A stretch of 32,000 nucleotides of DNA. Origin: an archaeon. Its GTDB lineage: Archaea > Asgardarchaeota > Thorarchaeia > Thorarchaeales > Thorarchaeaceae. The DNA lies in assembly GCA_024275415.1 (NCBI GenBank), contig JAJRZD010000049.1, positions 17,614 through 49,613 on the forward strand, read 5' to 3'. Each line of letters begins with the position of its first letter. Positions within the stretch are counted from its first letter, which is position 1. A program made the translations under genes and the position numbers. The notes under the pieces were generated by a model. It saw nothing but the letters and a program-made list of their open reading frames with translations, did not search any database and was not told the DNA's origin. Below are positions 27,974-30,310 of this stretch, one piece after another.

Positions 27974-30310
27974 ATGGAGTCTGATGGAACGATATTGATT
28001 ATTCCCGTTTCCGCCACCCGTTATCTACCTGTTGCCGGTGGTCCTCCGATGGTTCAAGCCATCCCCGAGGAATATGCATTTGCTGCTCATATGATGCTGC
28101 TTTTGAATACATACAAAGGCGAAAACATCGAATTCTTGATGAAAGCATACCTTCCAGTGAAACTGACACAGCTTTCTCCTTCTTCCTGTGCATTCATTGA
28201 CATGATGGGTCTTATATCATCAGAGATCAGGCTTTTCACACCGGAGGATGTTTCGGCATATCTGGATACTCTTGAGAAGTCCAAAGAGCCTCTACAGATT
28301 ATCGAGATTACTAAGAAGATGAAAAACGCGCTCACCCAGGCCGCTTCTGCACGCTCGAAGTCTGTTGTTGGACTGATCAGTGGACACCATGTGGATTCGT
28401 TTTCCAACCTTCTCCAATGGCCAACAATCTCATCGATTGAGCCATATGCCTTCGTTCTTCCATCGAGTGTGAATGAAAGCAATACCGCGATTATATTGCA
28501 GAGAATAAGACAGGGTTATGCATTCTTATCTGGTTTACGGGATCTGACACGAAGATTTGACGAAATCCTAGATAGACACGTTGCTTTCCTGTCGGCAAAA
28601 GCATCATCTTCGATATCTAAGAGCGTTGTTCGTTTAGATGATCGAATAAGAGCATTGGAGGAAGAAATCTCGTACTTGGAATCAAGAAAGGAGCAATTCG
28701 AATCTCGTGAATCTCTGACACCCTCTTCTTTGAAAAGGTTGGAGGACATCGAGTCCACACTGAATGCTCGACGGAGTGCCTATGAGAGAGATCTAAGACG
28801 AAAGGAGAAACTCACCGCGGACGCATCAAGGACAATAGAGATGCTTGCGAATGTCCAGCTGGAATTACGCGACGTCATCAAAAAAGTCTGGCTCGAGATT
28901 GAAAAAGTGAAAGGAGAGTATGATCGTATCTCTGGACGTTATCCGTTTCCAGATGACGAACGCAACGATAGGCAGCTCCTAATCCCTCTTTACATTGCTG
29001 GAATGTCACGGAAGGGACAGTTGCGAATTGTTATCATCCCTCCCAAGCAACTCCTCGAGAGCCCTGATAAAGTAAGCTTGCGAAAGGACTTTGTCTATCC
29101 TTTCAGCGGGTCAAAATCACCTGCCGATCGGCTGTTGCAAATCCTCTCCGAACGGGCCAATTCGGACATCTCACTTCGAAAGTGGCTCAGGGATGCTTCT
29201 AAAGACAAGAATCTATTAGCATTGAAACCTGCAAGGAAACTCCTCATGGATGGAGCAGAACTACTTCAGGCGGATGGCCTTGCCAAACCTTCGGAGGTGC
29301 AGGAACTTCGAGAGTTTCTTTCTCAAATTCCTGAACAAGCACTTCGAATCGAACTACGTACATATGCTGTGTCCGATACGGAATCCACCGATACCTGTAA
29401 AGTGATTTTCAGTGTATATGATGATAGTGGAAGGCCGGTCGAAGGCGCGACGTTGACAGTTGGTGCTCTAAGATTACATACCAATGTATCCGGAAAGGCC
29501 GAGGTCGTTCTTCCCCTTAGCAACTATGATGGGACTGTGACGGCTAAGGGGTATCGAGAGAAATCATTTGATTTCACCCTGCGGACGCACGGAGATATCG
29601 TACTTCCACTGATGCTGTCCGAATTGACCCATGAGGAGAAGATGGATGCGGAGTTACAGGCGCTAGTAGGGAAGGCTGAACGACTTAATCTGATAAAGAC
29701 CAAGCTCGAAGAAGCCTTTGAGAAGCATGGTGATACAATCCTCCAGATTCCAGCCTACCGGAACATACTCATTGAGATGCTAACCAATCTTGGACTTGAA
29801 CCACAGAGCTGGATTGCCAAGGCACAGAAACAACGAGGGATGATGCAGAGACTGCTTCGACGGGATGACAGGACTGCACGTATCAGAAGAGATATCCTCC
29901 AAATCGCCAGCGAATCAAAGGGCGCAGGTGGCATCATGCTTTTATCTGACCTTCTTCTTCGCATGGACTCGTTGGGTTGGGAAATCAAGTCTGACTCGCT
30001 CGAGGATGTCCTGAGCGATATGGCAAAAGAGGGTCTAATTGAAGGCGTATCAACTCTAGAGAACGGCTCTAGGATAGTGAAATTCATTCCAGTGTCATTG
30101 ACTGAGGATCCGCAGAGGTTGTTGGCCCTTGCTGCCAAGCATGATGGTATGCTTACAATCGAAGAGTCTGTTGTCGGATTGGGCTGGACTGAGGAACGAG
30201 TGAGGAATGTACTAAATCTGCTTGTGGAAAAGGGTGTCGTGAAAGTCCAGAAGAGCTTCTCAAAAAGCACACAGTTTTGGTTTCCTGGACTCCGTAGGAG
30301 AAAGACATAA
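27974..30310 (+). CDS. Multidomain protein: unknown alpha/beta domain with coiled-coil insertion, PEGA/carboxypeptidase-regulatory-like beta-sandwich, and ESCRT-II Vps22/EAP30-like C-terminus
   Basis: The last ~220 aa (IKTKLEEAFEKH...PAYR...MLTNLGLEP...GGIMLLSDL...IPVSLTED...LLALAAKHDGMLT...LGWTEERVRNVLNLLVEKG...FWFPGL) follow the Vps22/SNF8 motif order. VYDDSGRPVEGATLTVG...TNVSG...VTAKGY is a PEGA-like fold. The start at 27974 is a best guess. Confidence 0.85.
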   Translation: MESDGTILIIPVSATRYLPVAGGPPMVQAIPEEYAFAAHMMLLLNTYKGENIEFLMKAYLPVKLTQLSPSSCAFIDMMGLISSEIRLFTPEDVSAYLDTLEKSKEPLQIIEITKKMKNALTQAASARSKSVVGLISGHHVDSFSNLLQWPTISSIEPYAFVLPSSVNESNTAIILQRIRQGYAFLSGLRDLTRRFDEILDRHVAFLSAKASSSISKSVVRLDDRIRALEEEISYLESRKEQFESRESLTPSSLKRLEDIESTLNARRSAYERDLRRKEKLTADASRTIEMLANVQLELRDVIKKVWLEIEKVKGEYDRISGRYPFPDDERNDRQLLIPLYIAGMSRKGQLRIVIIPPKQLLESPDKVSLRKDFVYPFSGSKSPADRLLQILSERANSDISLRKWLRDASKDKNLLALKPARKLLMDGAELLQADGLAKPSEVQELREFLSQIPEQALRIELRTYAVSDTESTDTCKVIFSVYDDSGRPVEGATLTVGALRLHTNVSGKAEVVLPLSNYDGTVTAKGYREKSFDFTLRTHGDIVLPLMLSELTHEEKMDAELQALVGKAERLNLIKTKLEEAFEKHGDTILQIPAYRNILIEMLTNLGLEPQSWIAKAQKQRGMMQRLLRRDDRTARIRRDILQIASESKGAGGIMLLSDLLLRMDSLGWEIKSDSLEDVLSDMAKEGLIEGVSTLENGSRIVKFIPVSLTEDPQRLLALAAKHDGMLTIEESVVGLGWTEERVRNVLNLLVEKGVVKVQKSFSKSTQFWFPGLRRRKT

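What the first reader, a model, noticed from the sequence alone, without database searches (positions are those of the whole stretch)
27974..30310. Full Vps22/EAP30-like ESCRT-II module on a 550-aa multidomain carrier, outside a canonical ESCRT cluster
Seen: residues from about nt 29650 to the end reproduce the Vps22/SNF8 motif order as I recall it, including the N-terminal helix (KLEE..EKH...P.YR...M...G.EP) and both winged helices ending in FWFPGL. In front are a PEGA/carboxypeptidase-regulatory-like beta-sandwich (~29390-29590) and an alpha/beta domain split by a long coiled coil (~28480-28930). No signal peptide or TM segment is evident. No Vps25, ESCRT-III or Vps4 gene lies in the window. 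Established: Asgard genomes encode a short Vps22/36-like protein in the ESCRT cluster. Inference: this is a second, adaptor-type ESCRT-II subunit that recruits Vps25/ESCRT-III to another target. Its gene is head-to-head (236 bp) with the GTPase operon, which suggests co-regulation and a GTPase-to-ESCRT link like eukaryotic Rab-controlled endosomal sorting.
Basis: partly seen in the sequence, partly recalled or inferred. Interest (0 to 1): 0.8.

Follow-up and report, generated by a model that had tools for sequence, protein, structure and literature searches.

The report
Vps22-type ESCRT-II core on long carrier
Most Thorarchaeota (Asgard archaea) carry a second, 780-residue ESCRT-II-like protein that joins a complete Vps22-type core to a conserved archaeal coiled-coil module of unknown function; it is probably an optional adaptor for the membrane-remodelling machinery, and its link to the neighbouring GTPase genes is unproven.

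Summary
Window 27974-30310 (+) encodes a soluble 778-aa protein. Its last ~215 residues are a full Vps22/SNF8-type ESCRT-II core: Pfam EAP30 scores 35.9 bits against a cut-off of 26.8, and human SNF8 matches at E 1e-10 over chain residues 32-239. In front lie an Ig-like sandwich (below the Pfam threshold) and a ~460-aa module. AlphaFold2 models that module confidently (pLDDT 91.9) as a globular head carrying a helical hairpin of about 150 residues.

The genome also has a canonical Vps22-like gene next to Vps25, Vps4 and Snf7 on another contig, so this is a true second paralogue.

- The family is present in 77 of 85 genomes of the window's family and in a sister family.
- The N-module is homologous (hhalign 99.8%) to free-standing ~530-aa archaeal proteins. 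In other Asgard lineages it is fused to a longin domain instead.
- Two or three EAP30 paralogues per genome are common in Asgard.

The GTPase link is weak. The head-to-head arrangement is conserved, but it sits inside a larger syntenic block. At least five near-complete genomes keep the GTPase operon and have lost this gene. Binding to Vps25 could not be tested.

Verdict: a new domain architecture of a known family, of moderate interest. The scan noted the same family before in another genome (e1-3064316).

The parts
27974..30310 (+). Gene for the 778-aa fusion protein (stop codon included)
   Evidence: ORF list and translation. Full-length homologues of 760-810 aa.
27974..28468 (+). N-module, first half of the globular head (residues 1-165). 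It carries the highly conserved N-terminal motif around residues 11-32.
   Evidence: AF2 model m4569d7f97a9b has strands 7-11, 14-18, 26-29, 51-68, 71-76 and 82-86, and helices 32-46, 93-124 and 138-146. Invariant residues are listed.
28475..28927 (+). Antiparallel helical hairpin (residues 168-243 and 250-318)
   Evidence: AF2 gives pLDDT mostly above 90 here. Fold searches match only coiled coils in this stretch.
28940..29353 (+). N-module, second half of the head (residues 323-460): a beta-hairpin at 333-355 and four helices at 385-450
   Evidence: AF2 model. This is the part best conserved with the free-standing ~530-aa archaeal family.
29396..29617 (+). Ig-like beta-sandwich (CarboxypepD_reg/PEGA-like, residues ~475-548)
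   Evidence: Pfam 24.9 bits, below the cut-off. The hit recurs in homologues.
29660..29893 (+). N-terminal helical region of the Vps22-type core (residues ~563-640)
   Evidence: Aligns with human SNF8 chain residues from 32 to about 105. EAP30 profile coverage starts at position 32.
29894..30292 (+). Tandem winged helices WH1-WH2 of the Vps22-type core (residues ~641-773), ending in the FWFPGL motif
   Evidence: 32% identity to the genome's canonical Vps22-like protein over 141 residues, E 2e-19. This is the most conserved part of the family.
27738..27973 (.). 236-bp intergenic region (37% GC) shared with the divergent operon
   Evidence: No promoter was mapped.
26631..27737 (-). Neighbour: 368-aa protein with a C-terminal winged helix, first gene of the divergent operon. 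Its link to the finding is uncertain.
   Evidence: Pfam HTH_9 26.3 bits at residues 278-316. Conserved next to the GTPase.
25777..26628 (-). Neighbour: 283-aa small GTPase (Arf/Roc/Ras-like G domain at residues 121-268) with an N-terminal longin-like extension
   Evidence: Pfam Arf 70.1 bits. The extension resembles Pfam-confirmed longin domains of other Asgard proteins. 69-90% identity across the family.
25086..25673 (-). Neighbour: 195-aa coiled-coil protein with a Pro-rich linker and a weak CdvA-like C-terminal hairpin
   Evidence: Pfam CdvA 22.2 bits, below the cut-off of 30. The orthologue in the sister family has 36% identity.

Best explanation
The gene encodes a soluble, three-part protein that is an optional, lineage-specific ESCRT-II-type adaptor of Thorarchaeota.

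Its C-terminal ~215 residues are a complete Vps22/SNF8-type core: a helical region plus two winged helices. This core most likely docks onto the ESCRT machinery encoded elsewhere in the genome (Vps25, the canonical Vps22-like protein, ESCRT-III), as Vps22 and Vps36 cores do.

The N-terminal ~460 residues form a globular head with a helical hairpin of about 150 residues, and an Ig-like sandwich follows. Together they would supply a different targeting or cargo-binding end.

Shown: the domain identities, the paralogy, the conservation and the distribution. Inferred: binding to Vps25 or Vps22 and the adaptor role. The partner or target of the N-module is unknown.
For: - EAP30 scores above the Pfam cut-off, and the alignment with human SNF8 is colinear over 208 residues.
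- In a tree of 85 Asgard EAP30 modules, the fused modules form one clade (SH-aLRT 100). That clade sits inside the Vps22-like core group (support 87), apart from other divergent paralogue clades.
- An origin by duplication shared with the Thor canonical Vps22 is not rejected (AU p 0.925).
- The EAP30 part is the best-conserved part of the protein.
- Intact frames of mostly ~780 aa occur in 77 of 85 genomes of the family and in a sister family.
- The genome encodes the presumed partners Vps25, canonical Vps22, Snf7 and Vps4.
- The N-module is a real, foldable domain (pLDDT 91.9). It recurs in other architectures across archaea, as expected of a portable functional module.
- Ig-like/PEGA domains, coiled coils and Vps22-like winged helices are recurrent parts of archaeal ESCRT systems according to PMC10936438.
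Against: - The gene is never next to ESCRT genes in the loci examined.
- The gene is dispensable. Several near-complete Thor genomes lack it while keeping Vps25 and the canonical Vps22.
- The N-module also occurs in Bathyarchaeota and Thermoproteota. ESCRT-II was not looked for in those genomes here, so the module's own function may not depend on ESCRT-II.
- There is no experimental or structural evidence that this core contacts Vps25.
Confidence: 0.5

Rival explanations
1. GTPase-controlled ESCRT adaptor. The neighbouring longin-GTPase, with its 368-aa winged-helix partner, recruits or switches the 778-aa protein through the N-module, coupling a small-GTPase cycle to ESCRT-II.
For: - The head-to-head arrangement is present in all Thor loci with enough flank, with one exception.
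- In the sister-family genome only the GTPase (58% identity) and the coiled-coil gene (36%) stay within 3.2 kb of the fusion gene. The other seven block genes tested, including the 368-aa winged-helix gene, were not found there.
- In other Asgard families the N-module is fused to a longin domain. Pfam supports this: Fuz_longin_1 scores 29.2 against 26.1, and Clat_adaptor_s 22.7 against 22.5. That longin resembles the one on this GTPase.
- The one genome without the operon also lacks the conserved first ~92 codons of the gene.
Against: - The arrangement lies inside a ~10-gene syntenic block that includes GluRS and a sugar-nucleotidyltransferase, so adjacency alone is not specific.
- Five genomes of 95-99% completeness (G317, G323, G325, G389, G391) keep the operon and the block but lack the gene.
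- No GTPase lies within 7 kb in the 'Asgardarchaeia' homologue locus.
- No G domain lies within about 8 kb in most of ten other Asgard N-module loci, several of them longin fusions; less flank was held in some.
- The 368-aa gene is elsewhere in the sister-family genome.
Confidence: 0.2
2. Non-ESCRT use of the tandem winged helices. The Vps22-like module serves only as a dimerisation or nucleic-acid-binding module for the widespread N-module family, with no contact to Vps25 or ESCRT-III.
For: - The N-module family also occurs in archaeal phyla outside Asgard.
- The gene is never linked to ESCRT genes.
- The EAP30 profile can pick up generic winged helices. The MCM C-terminus scores 25.6-27.2 bits.
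- One fragment of the family is labelled a PadR-type regulator by a source.
Against: - The match is not to a single winged helix. It covers the whole Vps22 core including the helical region.
- It clusters with canonical Asgard Vps22-like proteins.
- It shares their C-terminal aromatic-Pro-Gly-Leu ending.
Confidence: 0.2
3. A decaying or spurious gene. A chance open frame or pseudogene happens to carry an EAP30-like tail.
For: Lost in several genomes. 5'-rearranged in one genome.
Against: - Dozens of genomes carry intact frames without stops, at 36-63% identity.
- Many residues are invariant along the whole length.
- The AF2 model is confident.
Confidence: 0.02

Closest known systems
Vps22/SNF8/EAP30 (ESCRT-II subunit; Pfam PF04157; structures 2zme, 3cuq, 1u5t)
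   Same: The C-terminal 215 residues are colinear with human SNF8 residues 32-239: a helical region plus WH1 and WH2. Pfam scores above the cut-off. The module groups with Asgard Vps22-like proteins.
   Different: It is about three times longer, with a ~555-aa N-terminal extension. It is encoded away from Vps25, ESCRT-III and Vps4. Binding to Vps25 is unknown. It is absent from several genomes that keep the canonical Vps22.
Eukaryotic Vps36/EAP45
   Same: An EAP30-type core carried behind a large N-terminal targeting extension. It would be the second EAP30-type subunit beside a shorter Vps22, which is the logic of the eukaryotic Vps22-Vps36 stalk as described in PMC10936438 and PMC9192718.
   Different: Pfam detects no GLUE/PH domain or NZF fingers. 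phmmer against PDB hits Vps22 chains and no Vps36 chain. The extension is an archaeal coiled-coil module. Heterodimerisation was not tested.
Canonical Thorarchaeota Vps22-like protein (~250 aa; here G000 contig C20, L001:1390-2322, minus strand)
   Same: 32% identity over WH1-WH2, E 2e-19. A common origin as one clade is not rejected.
   Different: The canonical protein matches the EAP30 profile only from position ~77-82. PMC10936438 reports a steadiness box in front of it. It sits beside Vps25 and Vps4. It is more conserved, at 59-87% identity among relatives.
arCOG09748-type proteins of euryarchaeal ESCRT neighbourhoods (PMC10936438)
   Same: As described in that paper, these have an N-terminal domain, a coiled coil, a globular domain of unknown fold and a C-terminal winged helix resembling the Vps22 C-terminus. 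This is a similar overall layout.
   Different: Those proteins have one winged helix and are encoded next to Vps4 and ESCRT-III.
Unnamed archaeal ~530-aa family (e.g. P0042, P0094; Asgard, Bathyarchaeota, Thermoproteota)
   Same: Homologous to residues ~28-451 of the window protein: hhalign probability 99.8%, E 3.5e-30. Shape matches in the ESM Atlas have TM 0.48-0.57.
   Different: These proteins are free-standing, without the Ig-like sandwich or EAP30. They have longer coiled coils, no consistent gene neighbourhood and no known function.

Membership tests
EAP30/Vps22 family (ESCRT-II core) | Match to the Pfam EAP30 profile above the curated cut-off | tested here: met
   35.9 bits against 26.8, covering profile 32-215 of 219. 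38.8 bits in the six-frame search.
EAP30/Vps22 family (ESCRT-II core) | N-terminal helical region followed by two winged helices, colinear with solved Vps22 structures | tested here: met
   phmmer alignment to 2zme_A residues 32-239 (E 1e-10) and to 1u5t_A residues 33-228 (E 9e-5). This is by sequence only. This part was not modelled.
EAP30/Vps22 family (ESCRT-II core) | Groups with Vps22-like proteins in a phylogeny | tested here: met
   The module lies inside the Asgard Vps22-like core group (SH-aLRT 87) and forms its own clade (100). No eukaryotic sequences could be included.
EAP30/Vps22 family (ESCRT-II core) | Binds Vps25 through the C-terminal winged helix | not testable with these tools
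   This needs pull-down, SEC-MALS or a reliable multimer model.
EAP30/Vps22 family (ESCRT-II core) | Pairs with a second EAP30-type subunit (itself, Vps22 or Vps36) to form the stalk | not tested
PMC9192718 reports self-interaction of the canonical Thor Vps22.
Canonical Asgard ESCRT gene cluster member | Encoded beside Vps25, ESCRT-III or Vps4 | tested here: not met
   The cluster is on contig C20. No ESCRT gene lies near this gene in any locus examined. The nearest Snf7 is ~41 kb away.
Vps36/EAP45 | GLUE (split PH) domain in front of the EAP30 core | tested here: inconclusive
   No Pfam hit to a GLUE/PH family at E<=0.01. Fold searches were filled by coiled-coil matches, so the globular head was barely tested.
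CarboxypepD_reg / PEGA Ig-like sandwich | Pfam match above the cut-off | tested here: inconclusive
   The window protein scores 24.9 bits against 32.3. Homologues score 29-30 bits, and PEGA scores 22.5 against 20.8 in P0045.
Unnamed archaeal N-module family (~530-aa proteins) | Profile-profile homology over the whole module | tested here: met
   hhalign probability 99.8%, E 3.5e-30, 418 columns. 273 of 400 Asgard genomes have a match.

The most novel reading that the evidence does not exclude
Thorarchaeota may have independently built a Vps36-like subunit. The canonical Thor Vps22 has lost the N-terminal helical region of the EAP30 core, while the 778-aa protein keeps it. The two could form a eukaryote-like heterodimeric ESCRT-II stalk. 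The long arm would then be an archaeal coiled-coil head that is read by the neighbouring longin-GTPase. That would be a prokaryotic coupling of a small-GTPase switch to ESCRT sorting.
Probability: 0.12. Interest if true: 0.75.

Novelty: new variant of a known kind. Interest (0 to 1): 0.5.

Why it matters
ESCRT-II of Asgard archaea is usually pictured as a Vps22 homodimer plus Vps25, with Vps36 arising only in eukaryotes (PMC9192718). A class-wide second Vps22-type protein with a large targeting extension shows that Asgard lineages also built long-armed ESCRT-II subunits on their own. It gives a concrete, testable candidate for how archaeal ESCRT could be aimed at a second site or cargo.

The finding also gives a first functional handle on a widespread, uncharacterised archaeal protein family. 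That family is fused to an ESCRT-II core in one lineage and to a longin domain in others.

Tried and rejected
1. Complex prediction of the EAP30 module (alignment A7) with the genome's Vps25 (alignment A6) gave score 0.00 and no verdict. This is no evidence either way.
2. Fold searches of the N-module returned only coiled-coil matches to residues ~187-306.
   - These were Foldseek PDB on two models and VIA-align wide.
   - No fold is assigned to the globular head, which was barely tested.
3. The strand and helix order of residues 1-147 suggested a longin-like head. An hhalign comparison of that part against an alignment of Asgard longin domains gave probability 0.15%. The idea is dropped as unsupported.
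4. A Pfam scan of 43 N-module sequences gave only coiled-coil noise.
5. A third 'EAP30' hit in the genome (contig C43) is the C-terminal winged helix of MCM.
6. The 367-aa gene after a free-standing N-module gene (L070) is unrelated to the window's 368-aa gene.
7. Free-standing N-module genes have no consistent neighbourhood.
8. No G domain was found by tblastn in ten other Asgard N-module loci, several of them longin fusions.
9. A 'shorter proteins' search with the EAP30 part found only fragments of the same family.
11. Sequencing runs: none was listed and no RNA holder was listed.
12. The supplements of the asCOG papers were not held or were cut short. I therefore could not check whether this architecture is already catalogued there.
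Full report
**What is there**

The window comes from a Thorarchaeota-type Asgard genome: 3.5 Mb, 127 contigs, 92.9% complete. 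Its relatives carry Thorarchaeota labels. The frame 27878-30310 has its first ATG at 27974, which gives a 778-aa protein.

Pfam finds EAP30 (PF04157) at residues 571-756. The E-value is 8.3e-9 and the score of 35.9 bits is above the curated 26.8. The match covers profile positions 32-215 of 219. A direct phmmer search of PDB sequences hits human SNF8 (2zme_A, 3cuq_A) at E 1e-10. The alignment covers residues 563-773 against chain residues 32-239. That is the N-terminal helices plus both winged helices, up to the aromatic-Pro-Gly-Leu ending. Yeast Vps22 follows at 9e-5.

The CarboxypepD_reg/PEGA-like sandwich is below the threshold in this protein (24.9 against 32.3 bits). It recurs at the same place in homologues, and PEGA passes its own cut-off in one of them.

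No hydrophobic segment approaches transmembrane values; the highest 19-residue Kyte-Doolittle mean is 1.09. The window holds no Vps25 or Snf7 gene, and the ORFs scanned with Pfam gave no Vps4 family.

**The N-terminal 460 residues**

With nine close sequences AlphaFold2 modelled only the helical hairpin confidently (pLDDT 65.7). An exhaustive profile search then found about 20 further full-length clusters, plus a more distant family of ~530-aa proteins. With 43 sequences the model became confident (pLDDT 91.9, pTM 0.83). It has three parts:

- a strand-rich alpha/beta part at residues 7-146;
- two long antiparallel helices at 168-243 and 250-318;
- a beta-hairpin at 333-355 and four helices at 385-450.

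Profile-profile comparison shows that residues ~28-451 are homologous to the free-standing ~530-aa family (hhalign 99.8%, E 3.5e-30). Sources label those proteins as hypothetical proteins of Bathyarchaeota and Asgard. Shape matches in the ESM Atlas agree.

No solved structure matched anything but the coiled coil, and Pfam sees nothing. The fold of the head stays unassigned. It was barely tested, because the hairpin filled the hit lists.

**Paralogy**

The genome has a canonical Vps22-like gene on contig C20 (EAP30 at 54 bits). It lies directly beside Vps25 and Vps4, with a Snf7 gene about 2 kb away. A third apparent EAP30 hit is the winged helix of MCM.

The fused module and the canonical protein share 32% identity over WH1-WH2. 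The canonical Thor protein matches the EAP30 profile only from position ~77-82. Canonical proteins of other Asgard families match positions 2-218, and the fused module matches from 32. PMC10936438 reports a steadiness box in front of the Thor Vps22.

In a sample of 91 near-complete Asgard genomes, 87 have EAP30 and many have two or three copies. A second paralogue as such is therefore ordinary. This agrees with PMC10936438 and qualifies the 'single gene' statement of PMC9192718.

**Phylogeny**

In a tree of 85 Asgard EAP30 modules, the 26 fused modules form one clade (SH-aLRT 100) on a long stem. The Thor canonical proteins, together with the sister-family canonical protein, form another clade (99). 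Both lie within the Vps22-like core group (87), apart from three other clades of divergent second paralogues.

Forcing the fused and Thor-canonical modules into one clade gave a better likelihood than the free quick search, and the AU test does not reject it (p 0.925). A duplication in the Thor lineage is therefore possible, although long-branch attraction cannot be excluded. No eukaryotic sequences were available.

**Distribution**

The architecture occurs in 57 loci of species-representative genomes. Nearly all are labelled Thorarchaeota. In the anonymous genome set it occurs in 77 of 85 genomes of the window's family, mostly as ~780-aa frames. It also occurs in the one genome of a sister family, as an 810-aa frame whose EAP30 part scores 70 bits.

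Two more distant proteins keep the layout: P0045, labelled 'Ca. Asgardarchaeia', and a 794-aa protein in L095.

The N-module alone is found in 273 of 400 Asgard genomes. In five other Asgard families sampled it forms ~650-700-aa proteins whose first ~100 residues resemble a longin domain. Pfam confirms this in two of them: Fuz_longin_1 scores 29.2 against 26.1, and Clat_adaptor_s 22.7 against 22.5.

**The GTPase neighbourhood**

The divergent operon encodes three proteins:

- a 368-aa protein with a C-terminal winged helix;
- a 283-aa Arf/Roc-like GTPase with an N-terminal extension;
- a 195-aa coiled-coil protein with a weak CdvA-like end.

The operon is present head-to-head in every Thor locus with enough flank, with one exception. 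So is the wider block: alanyl-tRNA-editing-like gene, nucleotidyltransferase, eS25-HhH gene, YdjM-like gene and GluRS. Adjacency by itself is therefore background synteny.

Two results give the link more substance.

- In the sister-family genome, of the nine block genes used as queries only the fusion gene, the GTPase (58% identity over its full length) and the coiled-coil gene (36%) were found. The latter two lie 3.2 kb upstream in another orientation.
- The longin domain fused to the N-module in other Asgard lineages resembles the GTPase's own N-terminal extension (blastp E 4e-6).

Several results count against an obligatory coupling.

- Genomes G317, G323, G325, G389 and G391 (95-99% complete) keep GluRS, YdjM, the 368-aa gene, the GTPase and the coiled-coil gene in order. 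They have only ~200-600 bp where the 778-aa gene should be. They still have Vps25 and the canonical Vps22.
- Conversely, the closed genome CP070658 keeps a 746-aa copy whose first ~92 codons are replaced. It abuts a carboxylase gene, and the genome has no orthologous GTPase; the best hit has 36% identity.
- The 'Asgardarchaeia' locus has no GTPase within 7 kb. None of ten other Asgard N-module loci searched by tblastn, several of them longin fusions, has a G domain in the flanks held, about 8 kb in most.

**Mechanism**

The most economical reading is an accessory ESCRT-II-type adaptor. A conserved Vps22 core would plug into Vps25, Vps22 and ESCRT-III. A portable archaeal module on a long helical arm would give it another specificity. 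The core is the most conserved part of the protein, which fits a conserved partner.

The binding itself is inferred, and I give this reading 0.5. GTPase control is a possible refinement (0.2). A non-ESCRT use of the winged helices cannot be excluded (0.2).

**Novelty**

Diversity of Asgard ESCRT-II architectures and paralogue numbers is published in general terms (PMC10936438, and the preprint 10.1101/2020.10.19.343400). I found no description of this particular architecture in the texts I could read, and I could not inspect the asCOG tables.

Public databases hold the proteins as 'hypothetical' or 'PEGA domain-containing'. The scan itself noted the same family in another genome (e1-3064316).

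I class the finding as a new variant of a known kind, with moderate interest.

Noticed in passing
L066:9421-13529 and L068:9374-13421; in the window's genome G000:C42:15348-19265 (L182, L183): In the sister family and in the 'Asgardarchaeia' homologue, the fusion gene is followed by a ~220-aa gene and a 1139-aa gene. The large protein has a GCS2 (carboxylate-amine ligase) signature (Pfam 23.6 bits; Atlas cluster 0.97). In the window's genome the same pair sits together on another contig. This may be a former three-gene unit.
   Followed up: partly
L090-L094 (G109, G301, G120, G116, G308): Proteins of ~650-700 aa in other Asgard families join an N-terminal longin-like domain to the coiled-coil N-module. 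Pfam passes its longin cut-offs in two of the five. This architecture is not named in any source seen here.
   Followed up: partly
G002 (CP070658) C1:2469966-2471629 and 2494303-2496451: There are two further pairs of a 368-aa-like gene next to a longin-GTPase-like gene (25% and 31-36% identity to the window's pair). This cassette is a recurrent, paralogous two-gene unit in Thorarchaeota.
   Followed up: no
G000:C43:48224-48562 (L003:133-1881): The C-terminal winged helix of MCM scores 27.2 bits on the EAP30 profile in the six-frame search, just over the cut-off, and 25.6 bits as a protein. Genome-wide EAP30 counts at the threshold can include such false positives.
   Followed up: yes
L001:1390-2322 (-), G000 contig C20: The longest ORF of the canonical Vps22-like gene is 310 aa, but relatives are 245-275 aa. 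The true start is probably downstream.
   Followed up: no
G000:C28:3846-4361 (+), about 41 kb upstream of the gene on the same contig: This is a second Snf7/ESCRT-III gene (69.7 bits) outside the ESCRT cluster. It is too far away to count as linked, and its synteny was not examined.
   Followed up: no
G000:C122:65296-66096 (L076:712-2322): The same genome also encodes a free-standing 536-aa paralogue of the N-module (E 9e-14 to the family profile), next to a UbiE-type methyltransferase. The Atlas reports that a related Thor cluster of 552 aa carries Zn ribbons in 61% of members, but this copy has none.
   Followed up: partly
L186:7481-8237 (G391): The YdjM-like gene downstream of the missing fusion gene matches in three pieces that are not colinear in one frame. 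It may be frameshifted in that genome.
   Followed up: no
window 9348-14485: Two large adjacent ORFs (892 and 820 aa) have no Pfam match at E<=1e-5.
   Followed up: no
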